64,000 nucleotides of DNA, from assembly GCF_009914755.1 (NCBI RefSeq), contig NC_060941.1. The stretch is one strand, 5' to 3'. This stretch comes from the human T2T-CHM13v2.0 reference genome, Homo sapiens. Below are positions 9,187 through 32,216 of the stretch, piece after piece. Every line of letters starts with the position of its first letter. Positions within the stretch are counted from its first letter, which is position 1. A model generated the notes under the pieces. That model had not been told where the DNA came from. It saw only the letters and a list, made by a program, of their open reading frames with translations, and made no database searches. The position numbers were made by a program, and so were the translations under genes.

Positions 9187-9268
9187 GGTGTCAGAGGGTG
9201 AAGGATCTAGTTGGGTTTCTAGGAGAGTGAAGTTCTTGTGTTTGGAAGTCTCCTGGGCCTGTAGTCCC

Positions 9269-9274
9269 TTTATA
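9269..9274 (-). promoter_or_regulatory. TATA box of KRTAP4-11 (TATAAA)
   Basis: tttata on + strand, ~85 bp upstream of the ATG; same spacing in all six genes. Confidence 0.8.
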
Positions 9275-9892
9275 CCCTCCTGAAGGCCCATTGCCACCAC
9301 ATCATTATTTCCTTGTTATTATTTACCTACTGGAAAAATTAATCATGTAATTACATCATTGTGTTTCCAGTTAAATACTCCAAAACAGAGAAAATAACCC
9401 ATTTCCTTTTCCTGCTGTGCTCCTGTGTTTCCATTGGAAATGCATGTCATATTTCTTCATTAGTGGGGAGTCACCTTTGTCCCTGGTCTATGCAGTGTCT
9501 TTTACAAAGCACTGGTCACAGGACTCTCTGACATTTTGTTTTTAAATGTGACTCTCCCTCCTACCTGCAGATTGCTGTCTGCAAATCATGGGGGATGATT
9601 TTTATAATGTGAATGTATCTTTTGTTGTCAAAGAATGTCCTGGTCAGGTGAAATGTTGGGAAGGAATTAGAAGGAAGCACTCATTTGGGGAAGGATGTCC
9701 CATCTGTAATGAGGATGACTCTGATCCCATGTGTGCATCTCGGATGGTCGGGCAGATGGTCAGATCCCAAGAAGTTCTAAACTCTGTCAGATCTTATTCC
9801 ACAGCCTCCAGCGAAAGTACTTACCCATGACTCACTGCCTTTAAAGGGTAAAAACACATTTTGCTGTATGTCTTACAGTATATGCATTATGA

Positions 9893-13976: not shown

Positions 13977-14372
13977 TTGGTACATGGAAATAACAAGGTA
14001 CAAAAATGTTTGCAAAAGACTTTAAGAGAGAGACTTCACTGGACTTCAAGGTTGGAGGCTTTAAGATCTGTGGCCCTACAAATGATGGAGGCAATCTTCA
14101 AATTCCTTAGGCATGATGAATAAATGTCCTGAAGTCAAAGAGGTGGGAGGATGTTGGAGGACAATTTGTCAATTTATTAGGAGATTGTCAATGAATTCCT
14201 TTGGAAGGAAGGGAGTTTGGACAAAAGGTAGAATGCAAATACAGAATTTCTAAGGATGAGGTTTGCTTATGGGACCCAGATCAATTCTCTTGAACAGTCC
14301 GCATGTTTGCAATGAGAGCCTTCATCTGTAGGAAAGGACGTAATAAGGAAGTGGTGTGTTCACAGCAGAGAT

Positions 14373-14978
14373 TTAGCAGCAAGAGGAGGCACAGCACAAG
14401 GGGCGGGGGCAGGTGGAGATGACACAGGTTGGGCGATAGCAAGTGGTGTGGCAGGAGACTCGGCCACAGACTGGACGCAGGCAGCAGCAGGGGCGGCAGC
14501 AGCTGGATTCACAGCAAGAGGGGCAGCAGCTGCTGGAGATGCAGCAGCTGGGGCGGCAGCAGGTGGGCTGGCAGCACACAGACTGGCAGCACTGGGGTCT
14601 GCAGCAGCTGGACACACAGCAGCTGGGGCGGCAGCAAGTGGTCCTGCAGCAGGTGGTCTGACAGCAGCTGGGGCGGCAGCAGGTGGGCTGGCAGCACACA
14701 GACTGGCAGCACTGGGGTCTGCAGCAGCTGGACACACAGCAGCTGGGGCGGCAGCAGGTGGTCCTACAGCAGGTGGTCTGACAGCAGCTGGGGCGGCAGC
14801 AGGTGGGCTGACAGCACACAGACTGGCAGCACTGGGGCCTGCAGCAGCTGGACACACAGCAGCTGGGGCGGCAGCAGGTGGTCCTGCAGCAGGTGGTCTG
14901 GCAGCAGCTGGGGCGGCAGCAGTTCTCCAGGCCACAGCCCTGGTCAGAGCACACAGAGCCACAACAGGAGTTGACCAT
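14373..14978 (-). CDS. KRTAP4-12: Keratin-associated protein 4-12, 201 aa
   Basis: [24 protein letters not shown]...PLCCASSCC with three near-identical 120-bp (40-aa) units. Position and order in the cluster fit. Confidence 0.9.
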
Positions 14979-15068: not shown

Positions 15069-16304
15069 CCCTGCTGAGAACCACTATGACCATGTGAATA
15101 ATCTTGTGGTTTGCACATTACTAATAGAGAATCAGTTGTTTTTTAGTAAATTAGATAGTTGTCCTTATCTGGTAAATATTTCTATAAATAGAAAAGGCAA
15201 CATTTCCTTTTCCTGTTGTATTCTGAGCTATCCAATTTGGTTAAGCCAAGTGAATCAGCTCTCATTCTCCTTCCTTCATCTGATGTGTCTTCTGATGTGT
15301 AGACCCATTACATGACATTGTTTGATTAATTCTTTATTTATTTGACTCCTGGATAATAAGTTGAAAATAGATTTTATGATGACTAAATCTCCTCTGCTCT
15401 CAAAGAGGTTAAAAATAAATTACATAGAATGCTGGTAGGAAAATGTGATGAAAGATTCATCTTTGGGGGGTGATAGGAGGTAACTTGTGTATAATAAGGA
15501 ACACTGTGATTCCTTTGAATTTTGTGGCTGGTCAGTGAGATATAAAAGATCCCACTGAAATTCCTGTTTCATGTTATTGACTCTATTTAGCTTGAAACAG
15601 ATATAATGCAATGATTCATTGCTTTACAAGTAAAAATACATTGGCATGATAGGTCCCTTTATAAATTATTGTTGGCATGTTCTTCAGAGATGGGGATCAT
15701 AAGGAACATTTTTGTTCTATTTTGTTGGTAAGTCAAGATACCCACTGAATGTGTTTAACTGAAGTGTTATTGAAAGTAGATTTTCTCATACTCGAAAGCT
15801 GCTTTTTCTCACAATGTATGTTGGAGATATTTTGCTTGATACATGGAGAAAAGAAACAAAGGATCAAGTTTAATTTCTGTCCTACAGAAGCTTAAACAAG
15901 ACAAATAAGAAACATGTATAGGAAAGAATTTAGCAACTATTTAGAGAATGGTGTGATTAGTGAACAAAATAACAATTATGTATTTAATCTGTACACTTCC
16001 AATGAAAGATGAAACAATACTAATAGTTATAATTTTTTGAGTGCTTACTATGTGTCAGGAATTTTCTGAGTCCTCTATAATTGTTATCTTGTTTATACTT
16101 CACAAGGATTCTGCTATGTAGACACAATTTTTCTAAATTCTTTACATCCAAGGTACTTGAGGCCCAGATAGATTGAAGTCACACAGTCTGTAACAGGGAA
16201 AGGGCGTCTCTCCTAGAGTGTTCAAGGAACATTTTGCGCATGAACATTTTGCAATTAAATCCCTCCTGATATTTAAAAACAATTATTTATAATTAAAAAG
16301 ATGC

Positions 16305-16570
16305 AAGGTATGTTCTCACTCCTAAGTGGGAGTTGAACAATGAGATCACATGGACACAGGGAGGGGAACATCACACACTGGAGCCTGTCGGGGGTGAGGG
16401 ACAAGGGGAGGGAGAGCATTAGGACAAATACCTGATGCATGTCGGGCTTAAAACCCAGATGACGGATTGATAGGTGCAGCAAACCATCATGGCATATGTA
16501 TAACTATGTAACAGACCTGCATGTTCTGCACATGTATCCCAAAACTTAAAGTAAAATTAAAAAAAAAAAA
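16305..16570 (+). mobile_element. L1PA 3' end fragment
   Basis: atgttctcactc...cttaaagtaaaatt followed by poly(A). Confidence 0.85.
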
Positions 16571-16685
16571 TGTATGGTAAGAAACCATCATAAACAAAGT
16601 AAAAACACAAATGACTAAATAATAAAAAAAGAACTAGCAATTAATATCACGGACAAAGGGTTAATAGTATATAAAAGACTTCTGA

Positions 16686-17127
<442 letters not shown>

Positions 17128-17784
17128 TTAGATTATCAAAAATTCAAAATCTGATAGCATTCTCTGGAAGTGAGATGATGTGAAAATAGGCATGCTCGTA
17201 TTTGTCTTGTGAAGGTTTGGCAATAACTAGCAGCATTATTCTTTGACTCAGCTATCCCAATTCCATAAAATATCTCAAAGATACTCAGGTAAATATATGA
17301 AAGATATTGCACAAGACGATTCATAAGAGTTCTATTTGGGAAAAAAACTAAAAACTACAACAACACTGGATACAACCCAGGTGTCCTTCAATAGGGTACT
17401 GGTGTATAAACTGTGGTGCCTTCCCATGATGGAGTACTATGCAGCTGTCAAAAGGAATAAGGAGTGTCTCTATAGGCTACTATAAATTAATCTCCAGTAG
17501 ATATTGTTAGGAGACGATAAAGCAGTGGAGGAAAATGTGTACAATTGTTCTGCAACAATGTTTTAAAAATCCAGGATATAAATATTGAAAGTATATTTGC
17601 TTACACTTTAAAAAACGACAGAAGAATAGAGAGAGAGGAGATGAGAAAACAGGAAAGAGGGACTTCTGTCAAAACATCAAATTGTGCATTTTAAGTACAT
17701 GCAGTTTATTTATTATATGTCAATTGTAATTTAATGTAGCTGAAAAAAAAAGAAAAAAATAATGGAAGAATCAACCACATTTGG

Positions 17785-17786
17785 TT

Positions 17787-17819
<33 letters not shown>

Positions 17820-18098
17820 GAGACGGAGTCTCACGTTGTCACCCAGGCTGGAGTGCAGTGGAGCGATCTTGGCTCACTGCAACTTCCACCTCCTGTGTTC
17901 AAGCAATTCTCTGCCTCAGCCTCCTGAGTAACTGGGATTACAGGCGCCCACCACCACACCCAGTTAATTTTTGTATTTTTAATAGACATGGGGTTTCACC
18001 ATCTTGGCCAGGCTGGTCTTGAACACCTGACCTCATGATTCCCTGCCTCAGCCTCGCAAAAGTGCTGAGATTACAGGCGTGAGCCACCGCACCCAGCC
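17785..18098 (-). mobile_element. Alu with (GTT)n tail
   Basis: Reverse Alu dimer. Confidence 0.95.
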
Positions 18099-18942
18099 CA
18101 TGTTTGTTTTTTAAAAATTGACCCATAGAGGATGGAGGGAATAGAATAGAGAAGATAGAAACAGACACTAGATTATTTTTGAATGTATCTTTTTCTGTAG
18201 CTTGGACTTTGCACCCATGTAAATATTTTACATACTTATAAAAATATTAAATTTTTAAAATCTCTCAAAATCACTAAAACCACCACCACAACAATGGAAT
18301 CTAACTGTATATCCAGGCATAACTTCAGAGAAAGTAACTATCCCAAGGCCAAAATGTTTTTTTCAAAAACCTGTTAAGTTTGTTTGCAATAACTACACTG
18401 TTGTTATTAGTATTGGCAATATTATTCCAAGATTGTTGTGCAAGCATTAGGTAATAAAGAAAATGAGTAATTACATCAAGGAACTGTTATTTTTGGCAAG
18501 GAATAAAAGAGATTTAGGAAAAAGATATGAGGTTAAGTAAAAATCCTGTAATTATCAGTAGAAACGCTGATGTACTTTATCTTTTAAGCAAATATTTTCT
18601 AGTTGTGGACACTGAAAAAGTTGAGAGAAAATAATCAATTTAGTAATACTCATCATTTTTACATTTCAATCTTTCGTCCCAAATGCCATATTCACTACAA
18701 GGAACAGGGGTTCCTTGGAGAAATGGCTGAATATAAGTGTGGGTAAGGAAATATACAAATGAACCTGGAATATCTTATTATATATATATTAAAAAAAATC
18801 TACTAGATTCACGTCAAAAGTAGCCAGAGACCAACTTGAAGTTTGTTATTTGAGCACCAATGGGGATATGAACTGGAACCCACAGGTTCATATTGACAGG
18901 AGTTAAAAAAAATACTTTGGTCAGCTTTGAATGATGTTCCAT

Positions 18943-20587
18943 TAGCAAGATTAACCAAGAAAAGGGAGAAAAAATCTAAATAACCTCACTAAGAAATGAA
19001 ATGGGAGCTATTACAACTGACACCACACAAATACAAAAGATCATTCAAGGCTACTATGAACACCTTTATGCACATAAACTAGAAAACCTAGAAGAGATGG
19101 ATAAATTCAGGGAAAAATACAACCCTCTTAACTTAAATCGAGAAGAATTAGATACCCTGAACAGACCAATAACAACCAGTGAGATTGAATGGTAATTAAA
19201 AAATTACCAACAAAAAAAAGTCCAGGACTAGGCAGATTCACAGCAGAATTCTACTAGACATTCAAAGAAGAATTGGTAACAATCCTTTTGACACTATTCC
19301 ACAAGATAGACAATTAAGGAATCCTCCCTAATTCATTCTATGAAGCCAGCATCACCCTAATACCAAAACCAGAAAATGACATAACCAAAAAAGAAAACTA
19401 CAGACCAATATCCTTGATGAATATAGATGCTAAAATCCTTAACAAAATACTAGCTAACTGAATCCAACAACATATCAAAAAGATAATCCACCATAATCAA
19501 GTGGGTTTCATACCAGGGATGCAGGGATGGTTTAACATATGCAAGTCAATAACTGTGATACACCACATAAACAAAATTAAAAACAACAATCACATAATCA
19601 TCTCAATAGATGCAGAAAAAACATTTGACAAAATCCAGCATCCTTTTATTATTAAAACCCTCAGCAAAATCAGCGTACAGGGGACATATCTTAATGTAAT
19701 AAAAGCCATCTATGACAAACCCACGGCCAACATAATACTGAATGGGGAAATGTTGAAAGCATTACCTCTGAGAACAGGAACAAGACAAGGGTGCCCACTC
19801 TCCCACTCTTCTTCAACATAGTACTGGAAGCCCTAGCCAGAGCAGTCAGACAAGAGAAAGAAATAAAGGGCATCCAAATCAGTAAAGAGGAAGTCAAACT
19901 GTCCCTGTTTGCTGACAGTATGGTTGTTTACCTTGAAAACTCTAAGGATTCCTCCAGAAAGCTCCTAGAACTGATGAAAGAATTCAGCAAAATTTCCAGA
20001 TATAAGATTAATGTACACAAATCACCAGCTCTTCTATACACCAACAGCGACCAAACGGAGAATCAAATCAAGAACTCAACCCCTTTAACAATAGCTGCAA
20101 AAAAAAAAAAAAATACTTAGGAATATACTTAACAAAGGAGACAAAAGACCTTTACAAGGAAAACTACAAAACACTGTTGAAAGAAATCATAGACGATAGA
20201 AACAAATGGAAACACATCCAATGCTCATGGATGAGTAGAATCAATATTGTGAAAATGATCATACTGCCAAAAGCAGTCTACAAATTCAATGCCATCCCCA
20301 TCAAAATACCACCATCATTCTTCACAGAGTTGGAAAAAACAATTCTAAAATTCATATGGGACCAAAAAAGAGCCCACATAACCAAAGCAAGACTAAGCAA
20401 AAAGAACAAATCTGGAGGCATCACACTATCTGATTTCAAACTACATTCTAAGGCCATAGTCACCAAAACAGTGTGGTACTGGTATAAAAATAGGCACATG
20501 GATCAATGGAACAGAATAGAGAACCCAGAAATAAACTCAAATACTTACAGCCAACTGATCTTCGACAAAGCAAACAAAAACATAAAA
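18943..20587 (+). mobile_element. L1 ORF2 (reverse-transcriptase region) fragment, disrupted
   Basis: ORF track gives L1 ORF2 peptides ([45 protein letters not shown]) broken by frameshifts and stops. Confidence 0.95.
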
Positions 20588-21944
20588 TAATATTCTTATT
20601 AATTTTTCTCCACAGTTTCTCTCATTAATTCCATAGTGGATTAGAGTATTTGATTATTGGCTTGTCTTATTTTTATTCTTATATTAACTGTAGCTTCTGT
20701 ATGTGAAGTTTTATCTCTATATTTATGTGTTGATTGTAGCCTTTAGCATAATACTTTTTCCTACTTTGTCCTCTGTAATGCTTTTTGTGTAAGTCTAACT
20801 TGTGGGATAGAAGAATTGTAGCCCCTGCTTTCTTCCATTTGCATTTTCATATATGTATCTCTGTCTTTACCTTTTCACTTTTAACCTTCTGATGCTTGTT
20901 GATTCACTTGTGTCTCTTTATAGACAGCATAATGCTGAGCTTTCCTTTTCATAAGCCAATCTGAAAATCTTTTTTTAAAGTCAGTTGAGCCTATTATATG
21001 TATGGATATAATCAATATGCTTAAATTTAATTATGTCATTTTTATTATACTTATATATAATAATGATATATAATAAGTTATCTTCTATATTTGTTAAATA
21101 TTTCTCTTGCCTGTCTCTTTATCTTTCTATCTCTCTGTCTTTCACTTTTAAAATTCTAATCTTTCACCTTTTAAATTCTCTCTCTTTCTCAGTATGCCTT
21201 TTGGTATTTAGGAATGTTTGTATTTTGTACTAACGGTTACCTTTATATACCTCATGAGCTCTATTTTTTAGCTACTGTCAGTTGATTCTCTGCTTACAGA
21301 AATATTGAAATTATCTGGTTACCTCTTTATTCCTCACTCCCTGAGCATGAGATTTGAATTCCTGGTTAATATCTATAAGGCAATCAGCAAACTTCTACTT
21401 TATATATTTGCTCTCCTTTTCCTTCCTGTTTTGGTAGTTGTGCTGTATCAACATTGTCAGTACATAGCTGTTAGGTATCACACTTCCTCTCTTAGGCTTA
21501 TCGTTCATTCTGTTCTTAGTTCCAAAGGATATATATCGATCCAGACCTCATGTAGATGTCCTTCCAGTATCTTTAGTCATCTGATTTTATGAAGTTCACT
21601 TGTTAATAAATTCTTCAGGATCCACCCATGGTGGAGAATATTCACTGAGTTTTTTCATGTTTATAATAGTTTGTTTGTGGCCTTTATACCTGAAGTTCAG
21701 TTTGGCTGAATTTAAAATCTTTGCCTCACATTTTCTTTCCTTGAGCATTACTCTATTATCTTCTGACATTTTCATCAAAATGTGTGAAAACAAGCTCGTT
21801 TTATTTCCTTCTGGTTGACATGGACATTTTGCCTGGATGTTCAAATGATTACTTTTCTTTAAATAATTATTATGTTTTTCTTTAAAATTCAAGGCTTTTA
21901 TAACATTATGTCTCAATTTTGACCATTATGAGCTTATTTTTCCA

Positions 21945-22080
21945 GAAGGGGTAGCTATACTTATAACAGATAAAACAAACTTAAAATCAACAACAGTAAA
22001 AACAGAGAAAGGAGGTCATTATATAATAATAAAGGGATCAATTCAGCAAGAAGATATAACAATTCTAAATATACATATTA
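21945..22080 (+). mobile_element. L1 ORF2 endonuclease-region fragment
   Basis: ggggtagctatactt...ggtcattatataat...aagggatcaattcagcaagaagatataacaatt. Confidence 0.75.
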
Positions 22081-22082
22081 GT

Positions 22083-23160
22083 AAGAGAGTGAGCTTAGTA
22101 AATTTGAAAGTCCCTTTGCTACCTGTCCTTTTTTGTGCTCTGCTGAAGCAGCTGTGACCATGTCCGGGATCATTTCCTACTTTATTTTCTTATGGAGATG
22201 TTGGGGCTCAGAAAACAAAACCCCAAAATATGATTCTTTGGTACCTTGATTGGGGAATTGTGGGGAACAGCAGCTATAAGCAGAGGTTTTCTCTGAGGTT
22301 CCCGTATCTGCCTGAAGACATCCAGGAAAGATATATAACAGGAAAAGAGGCTAAATGTTGACATCACCCCAGAGCGGCTTTGCCTGAAAGACTTTACCTA
22401 CATAGCAAGACAGCCTTTGTTCACCATACATTTCTTTCCCTCACCTTCCCATAGCTTGTGGACACCTCCCCTAAGAATCCCCAAGACCCTATTCTGATGC
22501 TATACAAACTTCAATCATTGGCCCTTCTTCAAGTCTTATAGTTTGTGAGGCTCTGCACATGCATGTAATAAATTTGTATGCCTTTTCTCCTGTTGATCAG
22601 TCTGCTGTCACTTTTTTCCAGAGACTCAAATTCTCACATCTAGAGAGTAGAGGGAAGTTTAAAACACACCTATACACTATACACGAAATTAGATCATTAC
22701 GTTTTTCTGGTTAAATATTTTAAGATGTAGGAAAATATTATTTCCCTTTCCTAGTGTGTTAAGATTTTCCAATCTGGACTTTCTCACAGAATTATCTTGC
22801 CTATTTCTTTGTCTACTGTGTCTTCTCAAGATGGCCCATCACATGGATTCAGTCCGGTATGTACCTGTGATCTGTGCATCACGCCATGATCCTGTTTGGG
22901 CAAATTGTTCTCATGATGCCAAGATCTCTTTTGATGTCAAAGAGAAGCAGAATTAGAGTAGGGAAATAAAAAGAAACAAGCTCATCTTTCTGAGTTAGTT
23001 ACCGGTGAGCAATGAGGAAGACATATCCTATTTGTGAGTCATAAATGCTCATTAGATAGTGGACTCTCTAGACTTCTTCAAAGTATGCACCAGGTATCAT
23101 TTCCTTTATTCAATTTGAAACTGTTAACAATGACTCATTGTTTTAAAATATGAAAAGGCA
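22083..23160 (-). pseudogene. Orphan KRTAP4-type 5'UTR/promoter remnant with no coding region, interrupted by an LTR
   Basis: 22083-22146 aligns ungapped to the KRTAP4-6 5'UTR/TATA region 31367-31430 (48/64 identical by eye). 22685-22770 resembles KRTAP4-4 upstream 52615-52705. Confidence 0.75.
22199..22676 (+). mobile_element. ERV1-class solo LTR (MER31-like)
   Basis: tgttggggctcagaaaac start, aataaa at ~22567, ends ...taca. Confidence 0.6.
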
Positions 23161-24207
23161 TTTGGAGCTACTCTGAATAAACTTTCACTGGCCTAATATG
23201 GGACTTGGGCACCAAAATGAATATTGGCAGTAATAGATTACAACCCATCAAATAAAATTAAGGATTGATGAGTCCATATTGATATGAATTAAATGGAGAA
23301 GTTAAAAAAAGGAAGATGAGAAAGTTATCCATGACAGTAGAATGTCAATGAGTAAATGTAGAAGGAATAAAGGAGTTTCAAATCACCATTTACAGCCATT
23401 ATAATAAAACTTGATCAAGTGAATATCATCAATGAATGCTATAACTATTGGGTGGAAGTTTAATGGGGAGCAGGATATTTGCACACTTCAAAATATTTTC
23501 CCAATAACTGTTTATTAATTTCAAAGGGAAAATGTTAACTTTACTGTGAAGAAACTTGAGAACATACCCTTCATCACAGGATCAAAGTTAGCAGCATTAA
23601 TAATGGTCAAACTAGCATGTGTCTCCTGAAGTCACACACTGAAAGGACACATTACTTATGCAATATTTCTGTTAAAATGCAAAACCTGAATATAAGCATG
23701 AGGAAACATCAGATAACCTCAGACTAAGAAATACTCCACATAACGACTGGTCTGCTATCTTCAAAAATATTAGCACCATCTAATATAAAGACAGTCTGAG
23801 CAAGTATTTCAGGTCTAAATAAAGTAAGGAGATATGATAGCTAAATGCAATGTATGAACATGGATAAAAATTGCTTTATAGGATATATTGGAAAAATGGC
23901 AACGTTTGGATATAGCATGTATATTAGGTAATAATATTGCATCAACATTCAGTTTAATTGATATCTTTACTGTGGTTATACATGAAAATGTCCTTAGTCT
24001 TAGGACATAAGTCTATCTCTATCCATGTCATCTCTCTAGAGAGAGAGAGAAATCAAATGTGGCCAAATGTTGAATCTAGGTGAAGACTATATGGCATAAG
24101 GAATTCTTTACTCTTATAACTATTCTGTAAGTTTGAAATGTTTTCAAAAATGAAAAAAGTTTAAAAATAAAACGAATTAGGATTGAAAAAGTATTTTTTC
24201 TTTGGCG

Positions 24208-24776
24208 TGTTAAAAGAAACATTTAGGCAAATTAAATTTAACAGATTTTAATTCATCAAAGAATAATTCATGAATTGGGAAGCTCCCAGACAAGCACAAG
24301 TTCGGAGCAACTCCTTGGCTTCCATTTGGTTAAATAACATTTATGGATAGAAAAAGGAAAGTGATTTGAGTAGTTGCAGCTGAGACCATATGATGTTCTA
24401 CTAAATATCTGAAGATTAAGATGAAGAATTGAGTTATGATCACATACCTCAATTATTAAAAGTAGCCCTAATCTAAAAAAAAGAAAAAAAGAAAAAAAAA
24501 AGGAAAAGGAAAGTGATGTACAGAAAACCAAAGTGAGGGACAGAAATAGCTGGGCTCGTTAGAGCTCAACGTTTGCTTTAGTTGAACATGGTTTAAACAG
24601 TTGGCCCCTGTGATTGACCAGAACTGGGCTGCCGTGGACTTGGATACTTGTTGGAAAGGTAGGTTACAGTTTGTTTACATATCCAGTTAGGTTACAGTTT
24701 ACTATGCATGGAGAAACGTTTATGCCAAGCCTAAAATATGTAAAGAGGCAGCTTTAGGCTAAACTTAATTTAACAA
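24208..24776 (-). mobile_element. ERV1-class solo LTR (MER57-like) containing a retro-insert
   Basis: tgttaaaag...tttaaca termini; reverse strand begins TGTTAAAATTAAGTTTAGCCTAAAGCTGCC. Confidence 0.65.
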
Positions 24777-25864
24777 TTCTTAGTATAATAAGAGTGAGGA
24801 GTTTGGGTCTTTTGGAGGAAATGCTGAAGTATATAATAAAATTTACTTCATAGGAGCATCTACTATAAAAACCCTTTAAAAATATTTCTAACACAGTAAA
24901 TCTTTCATCTCCTTGGGTCTCTGAAAATAAAGAACTTCTGGCAATGTAGCTGACTGAGTTGATACTGACAGACCCACTTCCTGGTATGAGTAAGTATAAA
25001 TTCTTCAAAGATTTTTTAAAAAATTCAATCGTAGTTGAACTTGAGAAAAGTAGAGAAAAATTCTCATTTGTCAGAAACTAAGAGGGAACTCAAATGGCAA
25101 ACACTAGCTGATGTCCTGTGGCCTGTGGGAAGGTTTGGCATCCAGTTAGATGCCCTCAGAACTGGAGGCTGGTGGTTAAAACTCAGGCAGGTACAAGAAA
25201 TGGGACCTGAAACTATCACCAGGCAGGATCTAGGAAGTAAGACCCTTATATAAAGTTTATATTCTTAAGAACGCTGTTTGGGCAGATTGTTCTCATGATG
25301 CCAAGATCCCTTTGATGTCAAAAGAGAAGAATGTAAACTTAAGGTTTACATTCTGAAAGCATTTTTGTGCATAAGATGGAGACAAGAAAACCTTAGTCTG
25401 CCTACAGGAATTTTATGTGGTAATAAAGTCATGAACAACTAAACCATGCAATATCACCAAGCTTCTTAATTCACACTGTATGCATAGTGGAGGAACCTCA
25501 AGGTGAGAAACTGCTGATACTAAATAGTGCATGTCCTTGAAATAATCAGAAACAAAAGCAAAAGGAATAGCACACAGAAAGAACACCCCAAAAAGAAAAA
25601 AATATAAAAATAAAAAAGCATTAAGCACAAGGAAAAATAAACCTCTAAGAAACCACACACAGATTGCATGGGATCCCCCACAGGGGTCAATTTCTGCATA
25701 AGATAAATGCATAGGCAAATATTACAAAATATGTAAGAAAATAATTTATCATGAGTAGTATAGTAGACACAGGAAAAGGGAATATAACCCCTGGGAATTG
25801 AGATAACTGAAAATTCTGAAGGAGACTATATATAAATGGGTTTAAAAGGTAAACAAAAAATGGA

Positions 25865-26360
<496 letters not shown>

Positions 26361-26484
26361 AAAAATGAAAATCATAATGAAGAAATGGAATATAGAAAAT
26401 GACTGATTTGGAAAAGAACAATGTAGAATTACCCTTTGTTGGGACCATCCTTCCTATCACTTTCCTTTTACTTGAAGCCTTTCT

Positions 26485-26870
<386 letters not shown>

Positions 26871-27059
26871 TAATTTCATTATCTTTTTTGTTTCTCTGGG
26901 CATATAATTCTCTATCGGCAGTGTTTCCCTTCACAAGATGTCTCTTCATCGTCTTCTCACTTCCATTATTTCAGTTGAGTTTTAGGCTTCCTGTTCTTTT
27001 TGTAAAAGTGTATGTTGTTTTTTCCCCTGTTGCTTTTACTTATTTTATTATTTTATTAT

Positions 27060-27875
27060 AAAATTATATATATATAATTTAAGGTGTACAATACAATGTT
27101 TTGATATACATTGTAAAATGATTACTAAAGGCAAGATAATCAACATATTCATTGCCTCACATAGTTAGTTGCCTTTGTGTGTGTGTGTGTGTGCATGTGT
27201 GTGTGTGTGAAAACACTTAACATCTACTCTCTTAGCAAGTTTCAAGCATACAGTACAGTATTATTAACTGTAGTCACCATGCTGTACATTAAATTTTTAG
27301 AATTTATTCATTCTACATAACTGGAACCTTGTACCCTTTGACAGATATCTTCTAATTTCCCTCACCTTCCTGCCCCTAATAACCACCATTCTACTCTCTG
27401 CTTTTGTGAGTTTCACTTTTTTTAAGGTTCCACATGTAAGTGACATCATGCAGTACTTTTCCTTCCGTGTTTGCCTTATTTCACTTAACATAGTATCCTC
27501 CAGGCTCATCCATCTTGTCACAAATGGCAGAATTTCCTTTTTTAAAGCTGAATAATATTTCTTTATATGTATGCTTTAACATATATTAATATTATTATAT
27601 ATGATGTGTGTGTGTATGTGTGTGTGTGTGTGTGTATATATATGTGTATATATATATATATATATATCTCCATTCATCCTTTAATGGACACATACTGAAT
27701 CCATATCCTGGCTATTGAGAATAATGTTGCAGTAAACATGAGGTGCAGATAACTCCAGGATACTGATTTTTTACCTTCAGATATATACCTAGAAGTGGAA
27801 TTGCTAGATTTTATATGGCAGACCTATTGTAATTTTCAAAGAAACTTCCATACTGTTTTCTATAATGGCTGTATC
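27060..27875 (-). mobile_element. L1MA-type 3' end with (TG)n/(TA)n tracts
   Basis: Reverse L1 3'UTR/ORF2 end (SLEDTMLSEIRQTRKEKYCMMSL). Confidence 0.8.
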
Positions 27876-28744
27876 CATTTCTTGTTACGTTTATGATTTT
27901 CTTTTTATCTTTGGTTTTCAACAACTTTCCTTGATGTGCCTACATGTTGTTTTTCTTTTTATTCACTCTGCTTGGGTTCAGAGATGTTCTAGAATCTGTG
28001 ACTGGAGGTCTGTCATCAATTGTCTCAAATTGCCATCCGGTATCTCTTTGTTTATAACTTCTCCATTCTCTCTTCTCTCTTTCTGGGACTCCAATTTACA
28101 TGTATGTTAGACTTTTCACTATGCTCCAAGTGTGTCTTATGCTATTTTCTCCATTTTAAAACTTTTCTTCTCTCTGCATTCCAATGTGAATATTTTCTAC
28201 TTCCATTTTGCTGTTCCTCTCTCCTGTCTAATCTTCTGTTAAGCTTATTTATTGAATTCTTAATTTCAGTTTTTGAGTTTTTTGGTTCTAGAATTTTTAC
28301 TGAACTTTTTAAAAATAGATTCTACTTCTTTAATAAAATTTACATTTTTAATCTATTATTTCAAACATATTAATTGTAAGTATTCTAAAGTCAGTGTTAG
28401 TACCTGTATATAGATCATCCTTGGCTCTGTTTCTATTTTCTTTTTTCTTCTTGATTTTGCTCATTTAGTCATTTTTTTCTGGCATACTTGGTAATTTTTT
28501 TAATTGAATGCCAGAAATTCAGGAATTATATATGAAAAACTAGAGGCTGAAGGTGATCTTGTCTTTCAGCTGAAGGAATTTAATTTTTTTCTGAGACCAT
28601 GGTCTCTCAAATACTGCCTGCATAAGTCAACTCCCAATGCTCATAAACAACTGTTTTCTTAGTTTTGTCTAATTGTCAGAGTCATTCCTACTGAGAGGTT
28701 GAATCTTCTATCAGTTACTTTGTCACAACTGGAAGTGGAATTCT

Positions 28745-29006
28745 GTTTTTTAATTTTTTTAATTATACTTTATGTTCTAGGGTACATGTGCACAACGTGC
28801 AAGCTTGTTACATAGGTATACATGTGCCATGTTGGTTTGCTGCACCCATCAACTCATCATTTACATTAGGTATTTCTCCTAATACTATCTCTCCCCCAGC
28901 CCCCCACCCCCCAACAGGCCCTGGTGTGTGATGTTCCCCACCCTGTGTGTGATGTTCCCTGCCCTGTGTCCAAGTGTTCTCATTGTTCAATTCCTACCTG
29001 TGAGTG
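28745..29006 (-). mobile_element. L1PA 3' end fragment with a small internal tandem duplication
   Basis: Reverse L1 3'UTR; gtgtgtgatgttccc occurs twice. Confidence 0.85.
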
Positions 29007-30302
29007 TCCTTTACTTTTTCAAGTGACCACTCTTTCCTTCATCGGGATTTTGGACCTTGCACTCTGCTAGTTGTTGTCTTACTTCTCTGGTGATTCCTTT
29101 CCAGTCTCCTGTGGTTTCTGTTGCTTTGTTTTCAACTTACAAGTGATGGAGTGTCCCACAGCTCAGGGCATAGATGTCTTATTCTCAGACACTTATTCCC
29201 TATGACCAGGAAGCCACATTCAGTCCCACGGCATTCAAAGTCCCATTTCATATGCTGAGACCAACTGGAGGTTCATTTAATTTTCACCTACTTTCTCTGA
29301 CCCATTAGGAGTTGTGTGCTGTAAGTGGTGTGAAGGAATAATGCCCCTACACAGTCTAAATTATTGTTCGTTCATGTAGTAGAACCTATGGAAGTTAAAG
29401 ATTCATGATTCAATACCACTACATTATTTACTGGACCTTTAACTCCTAGAATATGTATTTAGTACAGAACTTTCTAAATGTTTCTCCTGCTTTTACTAGC
29501 TTGAATTGACATAAAATTTATTTTCACCATTTTCCCCCTAGGATGGAGTTTATAGGCCATATTCTGGGTTTAACTAAGAACCAAACTATTCCGTTAGTTG
29601 GTTTCTTCTAAGTCCCCATATTTCTCTATGAAAATTCATTTTTGTAGAATTTATTGACCAAGACCATGTGCCCCAAGACCATGCTATTAAATACACACCA
29701 CAGAAAAGTCATTAAGGTAGGAAAAATACTAAAATTTGAGTATTTTACATTTTCTGCAATTCCCCAACTTCTCAGAAGATTGATTTTCCCTAAAGGTAAT
29801 TATTTTGTTGTTAATGGATGGAGATGAAATTAAAGCAGCTGAGAGTGTGATAAATTGAATTACACGAGAGATGGATAAACCTTAAAGAGTAGCCTCTGGT
29901 TTTACAAGAATGGGATAAAAGAGATAAGGGCAGAACAAGATGACAGGATCGGGGGCCATGGGTGGAGGAGGGAAACAGAAAAATAAAGCAAATAAGAGAG
30001 GAGTGAGATTGTAGGGAAAGATACACTTTCAAAAATATTTAAGAAAATTTAGCTGTGGGATATAACCCTTCTCCATATTCATAAAAAAACTTAACTTAAA
30101 ATCTTTATTTTTTTCAATACTTTTGGAAACATCCATGTATTGCCTTTTTTTTAAGTCATTACATGTTGCAATTTTCTTGAAGGTGAGAGCAAGAATAGGA
30201 TTCGTTCAGTTGTGTTTTGGGTGGAATTTCTCAGGAACTAAGGACAATCATTACAAAGCAACACAAAAAGAACATTGTATTTCTATGCGACAAAAGTGGA
30301 GT

Positions 30303-30308: not shown

Positions 30309-30714
30309 CAGAAGCAGCAAAAATAAGATACAGAAACATTGCTGTAAAAGGAAATACAGGGTGAAACAATCAGACTTTCAAATCTGAGAGTGAGACATCC
30401 TTGCCCCGAGTTACCCTGCAAGAATTTCCATGTTTGGGACAGAAGAACTTGGTATCCATAAATACAAATATAAGGTATAAAATTTGGTAAATTCTATTAA
30501 TTTCTTTCTGTAAATAATATCTAATTTCACACTTGGGTCAACATGGGGAACATATATTCTAGATGTATAGCCAGGACATATATCCTAGATATATGTCCAG
30601 GATATGGACACACAGTTGGTGGGAATGGCCTCTTCTGAGTTGTTTATGAGATGCACAAGGTCTGCTTCTGTGAGGAGTGAGCTGAAGGGGAGGAGATAGT
30701 TTCAGGCAAGGAGC

Positions 30715-31332
30715 TCAGCAGCAAGAGGAGGCACAGCACAAGGGACGGGGGCAGGTGGAAATGACACAGGTTGGGCGATAGCAAGTGGTGTGGCAGGAGA
30801 CTCGGCCACAGACTGGACGCAGGCAGCAGCAGGGGCGGCAGCAGCACGGGCGGCAGCAGCTGGATTCACAGCAAGAGGGGCGGCAGCAGCTGGAGATGCA
30901 GCAGCTGGGACGGCAGCAGGTTGGCTGGCAGCACACAGACTGGCAGCACTGGGACCTGCAGCACCTGGACACACAGCAGCTGGGGCGACAGCAGCTGGAG
31001 ATGCTGCAGCTGGGACGGCAGCAAGTGGGCTGGCAGCACACAGACTGGCAGCACTGGGGTCTGCAGCAGCTGGATACACAGCAGCTAGGGCGGCAGCAGG
31101 TGGTCCTGCAGCAGGTGGTCTGACAGCAGCTGGGACAGCAGCTGGGACGGCAGCAGGTGGGCTGGCAGCACACAGACTGGCAGCACTGGGGTCTGCAGCA
31201 GCTGGACACACAGCAGCTGGGGCGGCAGCAGGTGGTCCTGCAGCAGGTGGTCTGACAGCAGCTGGGGCGGCAGCAGGTCTCCAGGCCACAGCCCTGGTCA
31301 GAGCAGACGGAACCACAACAGGAGCTGACCAT
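30715..31332 (-). CDS. KRTAP4-6: Keratin-associated protein 4-6, 205 aa
   Basis: ATG at 31332 in ctctgacaccATGG. [21 protein letters not shown]...[13 protein letters not shown] at 31415-31421. Confidence 0.85.
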
Positions 31333-31414
31333 GGTGTCAGAGGGTAAAGGTTCTGGGTGGGTTTCCAAGAGAGTGAGTTTCGTGAGTTTGGGAGTCTCCT
31401 TGCTGCATGTCCCC

Positions 31415-31421
31415 TTTTATA
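31415..31421 (-). promoter_or_regulatory. TATA box of KRTAP4-6 (TATAAAA)
   Basis: ttttata ~85 bp upstream of the ATG. Confidence 0.8.
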
Positions 31422-32216
31422 CCCAGCTGAGGAGCCTTTGTGATTATGAGAAGATTGTTTCCTTGTTTTTGTTTATATGACACAAATGCAATTACTAAAT
31501 TATATTGTGTTTTTCTAGTAAAAAATCCCAATATATAGAAAATGATTATTTCCCTTTTCTCACCCTGGTGTTCCCACATGAGTCACCTCTTGTTTTCCTT
31601 TCCTTGGTTTCAGTGTCACATGACTTCAGTCTCTGGGTATCATGTGACATGGGAGGGCCACTGTCACTTGTCTGTTTCTCATCATGATATCGTTTTGGGA
31701 GAGCTTCTGATTGGGCTAAGATCTCTAGTGGAGAAATGCATGTGTCAATCAGCTGGAATGCTGACAGGAAAAAAAGAAAATATGCTCCTGTTTTTGAGTG
31801 TGAGAAATAAGGAAGCTTATGATTCATTGTATGTATTCTGGGTGGCCATTGAGCTAACTAAATTCCTAGGTCATTGCAAGCTGTGTTAATTCTCATCACT
31901 CTGGTGCACCTTGAAACAGTTAGTAGTGACTCACTGTTTCTAAGGAACAAAGCATCATCTGGGCTTGAGCTGCGTCTGTCTTCAAAAGTGTCCTACAGGC
32001 TGAAGTAGAGTAATGTGGATCATAGTTTTTGATCTGCCTTTTGAAATATCAAATGTGTAATGGTTATGCTTTATTGACATTTTGTTAAAATCTTTTTCAT
32101 ACATTTTGAGCTAAAACATCTAGCAGGGTTTTTTTTTAGTATCACTTATTTCTAAGATTTTTTAAGAAGCATTGAGAGGAATATAAAAGATATATTCTTT
32201 AACTTACAGGTACTTA

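What the first reader, a model, noticed from the sequence alone, without database searches (positions are those of the whole stretch)
22083..23160. Ghost KRTAP4 gene: promoter and 5'UTR retained, coding region missing, TATA mutated
Seen: 22083-22146 (aagagagtgagcttagtaaatttgaaagtccctttgctacctgtccttttttgtgctctgctga) aligns without gaps to KRTAP4-6 31367-31430 (48/64 identical). The TATA position maps exactly to 22131-22137, where TATAAAA reads CACAAAA. The next motif, ctgtgaccatgt, matches KRTAP4-12 ctatgaccatgt. After the LTR (22199-22676), gaaaatattatttccctttcctagtgtgttaagatt matches KRTAP4-4 upstream gaaaagcattatttccttcccctggtgtgttaggatt. A TGACTCA(t/c)tg AP-1 element at 23131 mirrors those at 9828 and 31927. 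Where the ATG and CDS should be (left of 22083) there is an L1 fragment and no cysteine-repeat sequence. Inference: a seventh KRTAP4 paralog once lay in the 16-kb gap between 4-12 and 4-6. CDS-based pseudogene annotation would miss it, and the surviving upstream region could act as an enhancer.
Basis: partly seen in the sequence, partly recalled or inferred. Interest (0 to 1): 0.75.

Follow-up and report, generated by a model that had tools for sequence, protein, structure and literature searches.

The report
Orphan promoter of a lost KRTAP4 gene
Between two hair keratin-associated protein genes lies the leftover upstream region of a further KRTAP4 gene whose coding part is gone, an ordinary by-product of gene turnover in a tandem family that gene catalogues based on coding sequence overlook.

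Summary
A profile of six KRTAP4 upstream regions finds only two non-self matches in the 64-kb window: 22083-22189 (E 3e-11) and 22682-23153 (E 2.5e-33). They lie on the same strand and are collinear. With the intervening repeat (22199-22676) removed they form one 158-bit hit. None of 500 dinucleotide shuffles exceeds 1.1 bits. Both pieces are single-copy in the genome.

The homology begins 34 nt upstream of where the ATG should be, so only about 23 nt of 5'UTR survive. The TATA box reads CACAAAA. No coding or 3'UTR remnant exists in 15100-30200. Immediately to the left lies a 134-bp internal L1 ORF2 fragment covering residues 73-115. It has no poly(A).

Across the 112-kb KRTAP4 subcluster this is the only upstream module without a coding sequence.

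The best reading is a relic of an old KRTAP4 paralog, nearest to 4-12 and 4-6, that lost its transcribed body by deletion (confidence 0.8). Enhancer activity is untested.

This is ordinary birth-and-death decay in a tandem family. It is a new, unannotated member of a known kind, and interest is low to moderate.

The parts
21943..22076 (+). Internal L1 ORF2 fragment in the endonuclease domain, with no poly(A). It forms the left side of the breakpoint.
   Evidence: The translation of 21945-22082 matches human L1 ORF2p residues 73-115 at E 2.7e-14. All 39 non-self genome matches scored cover only window ~21943-22081, at 82-89% identity. In five L1 copies the homology stops at 22075-22078 and the copies then continue differently.
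22077..22082 (.). Six bases at the junction (ATTAGT) that can be assigned neither to L1 nor to KRTAP4. The breakpoint lies within them.
   Evidence: The L1 copies continue gcacc..., while the KRTAP4 paralogs have ...gtttcc before the shared aagagag.
22083..22105 (-). Remnant of the 5'UTR: the TSS-proximal ~23 nt. The 34 nt next to the ATG, the ATG itself, the coding sequence and the 3'UTR are all missing.
   Evidence: The profile alignment starts at model position 35, counted from ATG+1. The TSS equivalent comes from the RefSeq KRTAP4-6 exon end at 31389, shifted by the 9284-base offset.
22106..22198 (-). Core promoter remnant. The former TATA box at 22131-22137 now reads CACAAAA on the gene strand.
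   Evidence: nhmmer hit 22083-22189, model positions 35-142, E 3.2e-11. The two A-to-G changes at 22135 and 22137 fall in columns conserved in at least 6 of 7 functional representatives.
22199..22676 (+). Old dispersed LTR-like repeat inserted about 62 bp upstream of the former TATA box. It splits the upstream module.
   Evidence: The first look gave 358 genome candidates, and scored copies are 69-83% identical. Its ends were defined against 5 copies. The upstream alignment is collinear across it, running from model position 142 to 159. It begins TG, ends CA, and holds AATAAA near 22568. The family name could not be determined and no clear target-site duplication was seen.
22677..23165 (-). 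Distal part of the KRTAP4 upstream module, including the AP-1-like TGACTCA at 23131-23137.
   Evidence: nhmmer hit 22682-23153, model positions 159-666, E 2.5e-33, 109 bits. It is single-copy in the genome apart from a 57-bp local duplicate. No paralog homology extends beyond it.

Best explanation
This is the dead remnant of a KRTAP4 gene that once sat, on the minus strand like its neighbours, between KRTAP4-12 and KRTAP4-6.

Shown directly:
- About 600 bp of the family's upstream module survive at 22083-22198 and 22677-23165.
- An old LTR-like repeat interrupts them.
- They end abruptly 34 nt upstream of where the ATG should be.
- Six unassignable bases follow, then a 134-bp internal L1 ORF2 fragment.
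- No coding sequence or 3'UTR is left in the 15-kb gap.
- The TATA box carries two substitutions.

Inferred:
- The paralog is old. Its terminal branch is about 0.3 substitutions per site, and it sits beside 4-12 and 4-6 in the tree.
- Its body was removed by one deletion or break-repair event that happened at or after the arrival of the L1 piece.
- The most likely form is a plain deletion running from inside a resident, 5'-truncated, + strand L1 into the 5'UTR.
- Less likely, an L1 cDNA fragment was captured while a double-strand break was repaired, with loss of target DNA.

With no transcribed body and no TATA box, the relic most likely has no function today.
For: - **Profile match.** The profile of six KRTAP4 upstream regions gives E 2.5e-33 and 3.2e-11. 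These are the only non-self hits in 64 kb and the only hits not next to a coding sequence in 112 kb.
- **One hit once the repeat is removed.** With the repeat excised the two pieces form a single 157.9-bit hit over model positions 36-667. None of 500 shuffles exceeds 1.1 bits.
- **Leave-one-out comparison.** The relic scores 147.8 bits against a profile of 7 functional representatives. Functional genes scored without themselves give 44.8 (4-12), 103.7 (4-11) and 121.5 (4-6) bits.
- **Identity.** It is 59% identical to 4-6 and 58% to 4-12, while those genes are 51-56% identical to each other.
- **Tree.** The maximum-likelihood tree places it with 4-12 at support 81/84.
- **Not a repeat.** Both pieces are single-copy in the genome.
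- **No gene body.** In 15100-30200 the best tblastn hit has E 0.006 and lies in Alu or low-complexity sequence. The coding-sequence profile gives a best E of 1.4. The 3'UTR/downstream profile hits only Alu-like stretches.
- **The junction is not a normal L1 end.** The L1 piece covers ORF2p residues 73-115 only, in sense on the + strand, with no poly(A).
- **Family background.** The family is known to gain and lose copies, with 0-17 KRTAP4 genes per species (Khan 2014, Table 1 read).
Against: - No genome of another species could be examined. That a coding sequence ever adjoined this upstream region is therefore inferred, not seen.
- The relic has not evolved faster than the upstream regions of working neighbours. 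Unique changes are 76 against 92-96 for 4-12, 77 against 81 for 4-6, and 77 against 105 for 4-11.
- It keeps 116 of 148 conserved columns. That would fit a recent loss, mostly neutral promoters, or continuing constraint.
- The repeat shows no clear target-site duplication.
- The stretch 20600-21943 to the left is only partly identified.
- The alignments are at about 55% identity, so branch lengths and rate tests are rough.
Confidence: 0.8

Rival explanations
1. Promoter-only partial duplication. An unequal exchange or segmental copy carried just the upstream ~650 bp of a neighbouring KRTAP4 gene into this gap, so no coding sequence was ever attached.
For: Only the upstream module is present. 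Truncated copies do occur in this cluster. KRTAP4-16 is a coding-only piece, and 4-1 and 4-17P keep only part of the module.
Against: The module is as far from every paralog (at most 59% identity) as the oldest paralogs are from each other, so any copying would be ancient. Yet the truncation point abuts an L1 piece that is 82-89% identical to its genome copies, which makes it much younger. That L1 piece itself ends at a non-canonical internal position with no poly(A), which points to a later break rather than an original duplication boundary. The spacing and orientation fit a full array member.
Confidence: 0.08
2. The relic is a working regulatory element. After its gene was lost, the upstream module was kept as a hair-follicle enhancer or shared control element for neighbouring KRTAP4 genes. 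This does not exclude the relic origin.
For: It keeps 78% (116/148) of columns conserved among functional promoters, against 63-74% for functional genes in leave-one-out tests that used a slightly different threshold. Its terminal branch is the shortest of the 4-12/4-6/relic trio, 0.30 against 0.46 and 0.35. It shows no rate acceleration. The AP-1-like TGACTCA and the conserved block at 22730-22763 are retained.
Against: The TATA box is destroyed, and an LTR-like repeat splits the module at a conserved A/T-rich block. RefSeq lists enhancers at 14165-14718 and 30521-31033 but none here, according to the hub's table. The same figures are expected if the loss was recent or if these promoters evolve mostly neutrally. 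No chromatin, transcription or cross-species data could be consulted.
Confidence: 0.1
3. Chance similarity, or part of an interspersed repeat.
For: The individual short motifs (TGACTCA and the 12-mer) would not be significant taken alone.
Against: E 3.9e-50 as one hit, and none of 500 shuffles exceeds 1.1 bits. The match is collinear over about 630 model positions. Both pieces are single-copy in a 3.1-Gb genome.
Confidence: 0.01

Closest known systems
Truncated KRTAP4 copies in the same cluster (KRTAP4-17P, KRTAP4-16, KRTAP4-1)
   Same: They are products of decay and rearrangement in the same tandem array. 4-17P keeps only model positions 1-166 of the upstream module and 4-1 keeps positions 1-386. 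KRTAP4-16 has no detectable upstream module.
   Different: All of these keep recognisable coding sequence, so they are annotated. The relic keeps none, and it is the only upstream module without a coding sequence.
Birth-and-death and concerted evolution of high-cysteine KRTAP genes (Wu et al. 2008, PMC2528016; Khan et al. 2014, PMC4180150; passages read)
   Same: Copy number varies between species, from 0 to 17 KRTAP4 genes. Coding sequences are homogenised by gene conversion. Here, coding sequences are 70-90% identical between paralogs whose upstream regions are only 45-60% identical.
   Different: Those surveys search by coding sequence. 'Promoter' occurs 0 times in Khan 2014 and 'upstream' 0 times in Wu 2008. 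A relic without coding sequence is outside their scope.
Non-classical (endonuclease-independent) L1 insertions at double-strand breaks, with loss of target DNA (Sen et al. 2007, PMC1920257; abstract and section 11 read)
   Same: A short internal L1 piece with no poly(A) sits next to a stretch where genomic DNA is missing, and a few unassignable bases lie at the junction.
   Different: The state before insertion is unknown. Absence of target-site duplications and the size of the deletion cannot be shown. A plain deletion clipping an ordinary 5'-truncated L1 explains the same structure with commoner events.

Membership tests
KRTAP4 upstream/promoter module (paralogous non-coding family) | Significant, collinear homology to the ~650 bp upstream of KRTAP4 start codons | tested here: met
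   E 2.5e-33 and 3.2e-11. One 157.9-bit hit once the repeat is excised, and none of 500 shuffles above 1.1 bits. 147.8 bits in the leave-one-out setting.
KRTAP4 upstream/promoter module (paralogous non-coding family) | TATA box about 26-32 bp upstream of the transcription start | tested here: not met
   22131-22137 reads CACAAAA on the gene strand. All seven functional representatives have TATA in these columns.
KRTAP4 gene or conventional pseudogene | Recognisable cysteine-repeat coding sequence, intact or disabled, next to the promoter | tested here: not met
   tblastn with six KRTAP4 proteins and a coding-sequence profile against 15100-30200 give a best E of 0.006 (in Alu or low-complexity sequence) and 1.4. 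The coding profile hits every annotated KRTAP4 gene in 112 kb but nothing here.
Interspersed repeat | Many dispersed copies in the genome | tested here: not met
   22079-22198 gives the self match only. 22677-23165 gives the self match plus one 57-bp local match. By contrast 22199-22676 is a repeat.
Non-classical L1 insertion with target deletion | L1 piece truncated at its 3' end, with no poly(A) | tested here: met
   The L1 homology covers ORF2p residues 73-115 only and stops at 22076.
Non-classical L1 insertion with target deletion | No target-site duplication, and a deletion relative to the pre-insertion allele | not testable with these tools
   This needs the ancestral allele from an outgroup genome, and none is held.
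Active enhancer | Open chromatin, H3K27ac or reporter activity in hair-follicle cells | not testable with these tools
   No functional genomics data are available here. RefSeq functional elements, as listed in the hub's table, do not include this stretch.

The most novel reading that the evidence does not exclude
The orphan module is not inert. After the gene body was lost it was kept as a shared hair-cortex enhancer for the flanking KRTAP4 genes. That would explain why it is the best-preserved, most 'central' member of the upstream family: 147.8 bits in the leave-one-out test, 78% of conserved columns kept, and no rate acceleration. It might also explain why a 57-bp block of it (22892-22947) was copied at 93% identity to 25274-25329.
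Probability: 0.1. Interest if true: 0.5.

Novelty: new member of a known kind. Interest (0 to 1): 0.3.

Why it matters
The relic documents one more death event in the KRTAP4 array, and one that coding-based pseudogene catalogues cannot see. It also gives a dated landmark, the L1 junction, for reconstructing how the primate KRTAP4 cluster changed.

Because the relic is free of the gene conversion that homogenises the coding sequences, upstream modules like this one preserve the old duplication history better than the genes do. They can serve as markers for orthology.

If the relic proved to be bound or active in hair follicles, it would be an example of a promoter re-used as an enhancer. As it stands it is an ordinary relic.

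Tried and rejected
**(1) Twin-primed or antisense L1 to the left of the L1 fragment.**
- I read 20679-21925 (minus strand) as L1 ORF1/ORF2.
- PDB sequence searches of three minus-strand frames found no L1 protein. Pfam found nothing.
- Five L1 copies that reach 1.5 kb on either side of the endonuclease fragment show no DNA match there.
- Only about 21604-21769 and 20718-21022 match an old low-copy dispersed repeat. The idea was dropped.

**(2) The L1 reverse-transcriptase piece at 18939-20600 as the continuation of the endonuclease piece.**
- It has the same orientation, but it lies on the wrong side to be collinear.

**(3) KRTAP4-16 as the missing body of the relic.**
- It is a coding-only piece, 92.5% identical to 4-12 coding bases 14382-14843.
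- Its break lies about 135 nt inside the coding sequence, which does not complement position -34.
- Its flanks share only Alu-type repeats with the relic's left flank.

**(4) A 3'UTR or downstream remnant.** None was found.

**(5) Homology beyond 23165.** Only dispersed repeats match.

**(6) Target-site duplication of the LTR-like repeat.** None is convincing.

**(8) Literature.** Three searches were run: KRTAP4 + pseudogene + keratin-associated protein; KAP4 + 17q12-21 + pseudogenes; KRTAP4-12 + KRTAP4-6. None of the listed titles or abstract openings mentions a relic at this place. Only Khan 2014 and Wu 2008 were opened, by term search; neither uses 'promoter' (Khan 2014) or 'upstream' (Wu 2008), the terms tried. 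Subscription papers, such as the original KAP4 cluster description, and supplements were not seen.

Full report
**What is there**

The window holds six minus-strand KRTAP4 genes. I aligned the 900 bp upstream of their start codons and built a profile from the first 760 columns.

Searched over both strands of the whole window, the profile finds the six source regions at 414-469 bits. Beyond those it finds exactly two further places: 22682-23153 (model positions 159-666, 109.1 bits, E 2.5e-33) and 22083-22189 (model positions 35-142, 36.1 bits, E 3.2e-11). The next best hit has E 0.29.

The two pieces lie on the same strand and in model order. They are separated by 22190-22681. With 22199-22676 left out they score as one hit of 157.9 bits (E 3.9e-50, model positions 36-667). 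None of 500 dinucleotide-preserving shuffles scores above 1.1 bits.

- 48/64 identical to KRTAP4-6 at 31367-31430.
- 78.8% over 66 bases to the KRTAP4-4 upstream region.
- Offsets on the two sides of the repeat that differ by 476 bases.

The TATA position, the 12-mer shared with KRTAP4-12 and the TGACTCA at 23131 are all as described.

**Not a repeat**

Searched against the 3.1-Gb genome that holds the window, 22079-22198 matches only itself. 22677-23165 matches itself plus one 57-bp stretch 2.4 kb away.

The intervening 22199-22676 is a dispersed repeat. The first look gave 358 candidates, and the scored copies are 69-83% identical. Its left end falls at 22199 in 3 of 5 copies compared, and its right end between 22656 and 22679. 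It starts TG, ends CA and carries AATAAA, so 'LTR' is a fair label. I could not name the family, and I saw no convincing target-site duplication.

**What is missing**

The homology starts at model position 35, which is 34 nt upstream of where the ATG would be. Using the RefSeq transcription start of KRTAP4-6 (31389), only about 23 of about 57 nt of 5'UTR remain.

Three searches found no gene body:
- Six KRTAP4 proteins searched by tblastn against 15100-30200 give nothing better than E 0.006, and that hit lies in Alu or low-complexity sequence.
- A coding-sequence profile gives a best E of 1.4.
- A profile of the 3'UTRs plus 500 bp downstream hits only Alu-like stretches.

**Context in the cluster**

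I fetched the flanks to cover window coordinates -27999 to 84000, 112 kb in all. The upstream profile finds a module beside KRTAP4-7, -8, -9, -11, -12, -6, -5, -4, -3, -2, -1 and -17P. The coding-sequence profile finds a coding sequence next to each of them.

The relic is the only module without a coding sequence. KRTAP4-16 is the converse case, a coding-only piece with no detectable module.

**Relationships**

Over about 600 aligned columns the relic has these identities:
- 59% to 4-6.
- 58% to 4-12.
- 56-57% to 4-7, 4-8, 4-9 and 4-11.
- 44-49% to 4-2, 4-3, 4-4 and 4-5.

4-12, 4-6 and 4-11 are only 51-56% identical to one another. A maximum-likelihood tree joins the relic to 4-12 with support 81/84. 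Terminal branches are 0.30 for the relic, 0.46 for 4-12 and 0.35 for 4-6.

Against a profile of seven functional representatives the relic scores 147.8 bits. Functional genes scored without themselves and their close partners give 44-121 bits.

The relic keeps 116 of 148 columns that are identical in at least 6 of 7 functional representatives. Both A residues of the TATA box are among the losses. Relative-rate counts show no acceleration: 76 against 92-96 for 4-12, 77 against 81 for 4-6, and 77 against 105 for 4-11.

At about 55% identity these numbers are rough. They show that the lineage is as old as the deepest splits in this sub-array. They also show that the relic has not visibly decayed faster than working promoters.

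**The left junction**

The translation of 21945-22082 matches human L1 ORF2p residues 73-115 at E 2.7e-14. All 39 non-self genome matches scored cover only window ~21943-22081, at 82-89% identity.

In five L1 copies the homology stops at 22075-22078 and the copies then continue differently. Six bases (22077-22082) belong to neither partner, and the KRTAP4 homology starts at 22083.

An L1 that ends inside ORF2 with no poly(A) is not a normal insertion end. So 22077-22082 is a rearrangement breakpoint, made at or after the arrival of that L1.

The L1 piece is far less diverged from its relatives than the relic is from its paralogs. The truncation is therefore much younger than the paralog, which argues against a promoter-only duplication. 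Taking neutral rates from memory, the L1 piece would be tens of millions of years old and the LTR-like repeat considerably older. These dates are inference only.

Two mechanisms fit the junction:
- A deletion running from inside an ordinary 5'-truncated + strand L1 into the 5'UTR. I favour this because both events are common.
- Capture of an L1 fragment during break repair with loss of target DNA, as described by Sen et al. 2007 (abstract and section 11 read).

**Function**

With no transcribed body and a broken TATA box, the likeliest state is an inert relic. Its good preservation leaves room for a regulatory role. That role cannot be tested here, and RefSeq lists no functional element at this place (hub's table).

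**Comparison with what is known**

High-cysteine KRTAP genes are known to evolve by duplication, loss and gene conversion of coding sequences (Wu et al. 2008, passages read). KRTAP4 copy number ranges from 0 to 17 among 22 mammals (Khan et al. 2014, Table 1 read). Pseudogenes in those surveys are called from coding sequence.

In three literature searches, none of the listed titles or abstract openings mentions this relic; only Khan 2014 and Wu 2008 were opened, by term search, and 'promoter' (Khan 2014) and 'upstream' (Wu 2008) occur nowhere in them. Subscription papers and supplements were not seen.

**Verdict**

The finding is a new, unannotated instance of an ordinary process.

Noticed in passing
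window 25274-25329 (and 22892-22947): A 57-bp block of the relic's upstream module is repeated 2.4 kb further upstream, in the same orientation, at 93% identity. The flanks show no similarity. These are the only two copies in the genome, and 24900-25700 is otherwise unique. The copy is far more similar than any paralogous promoter pair of this age. It may be a small templated patch or a conserved element. It remains unexplained.
   Followed up: partly
L005:528-992 (window coordinates -7472 to -7008), KRTAP4-16: KRTAP4-16 is a coding-only fragment, 92.5% identical to KRTAP4-12 coding bases 14382-14843. It lacks the first ~135 nt of coding sequence, the 5'UTR, the upstream module and any 3'UTR homology. 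It is the mirror image of the relic, but its breakpoints do not complement the relic's.
   Followed up: partly
L003:2152-2827 and L005:3517-4192 (upstream of KRTAP4-7 and KRTAP4-9); window 9187-9861 and the upstream of KRTAP4-8: The upstream modules of KRTAP4-7 and KRTAP4-9 are 100% identical over the aligned ~650 bp. Those of 4-8 and 4-11 are 95% identical. This indicates a very recent duplication of a 4-7/4-8-type unit inside the array.
   Followed up: no
window, all six KRTAP4 genes: Coding sequences of paralogs are 70-90% identical, while their upstream regions are 45-60% identical. Strong blastn matches between most paralogs run from the stop-codon end of the coding sequence to roughly 40-400 bp past the start codon, further in the recently duplicated pairs. 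This fits gene conversion confined to the coding sequence.
   Followed up: no
window 18939-20600: A separate + strand L1 piece carries the reverse-transcriptase domain (Pfam RVT_1, E down to 6e-16). It lies to the left of the endonuclease fragment, so the two are not collinear parts of one insertion.
   Followed up: partly
window 20718-21022 and 21604-21769: These stretches match an old, low-copy dispersed repeat. One locus on another chromosome carries both pieces in the same order. My first reading of this region as antisense L1 was not supported by protein or DNA searches.
   Followed up: partly
L006/L007 (window coordinates 76654-77044 and 78936-79108): KRTAP4-1 keeps only model positions 1-386 of the upstream module and KRTAP4-17P only 1-166. 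Partial loss of the distal module has therefore happened at the end of the array as well.
   Followed up: no
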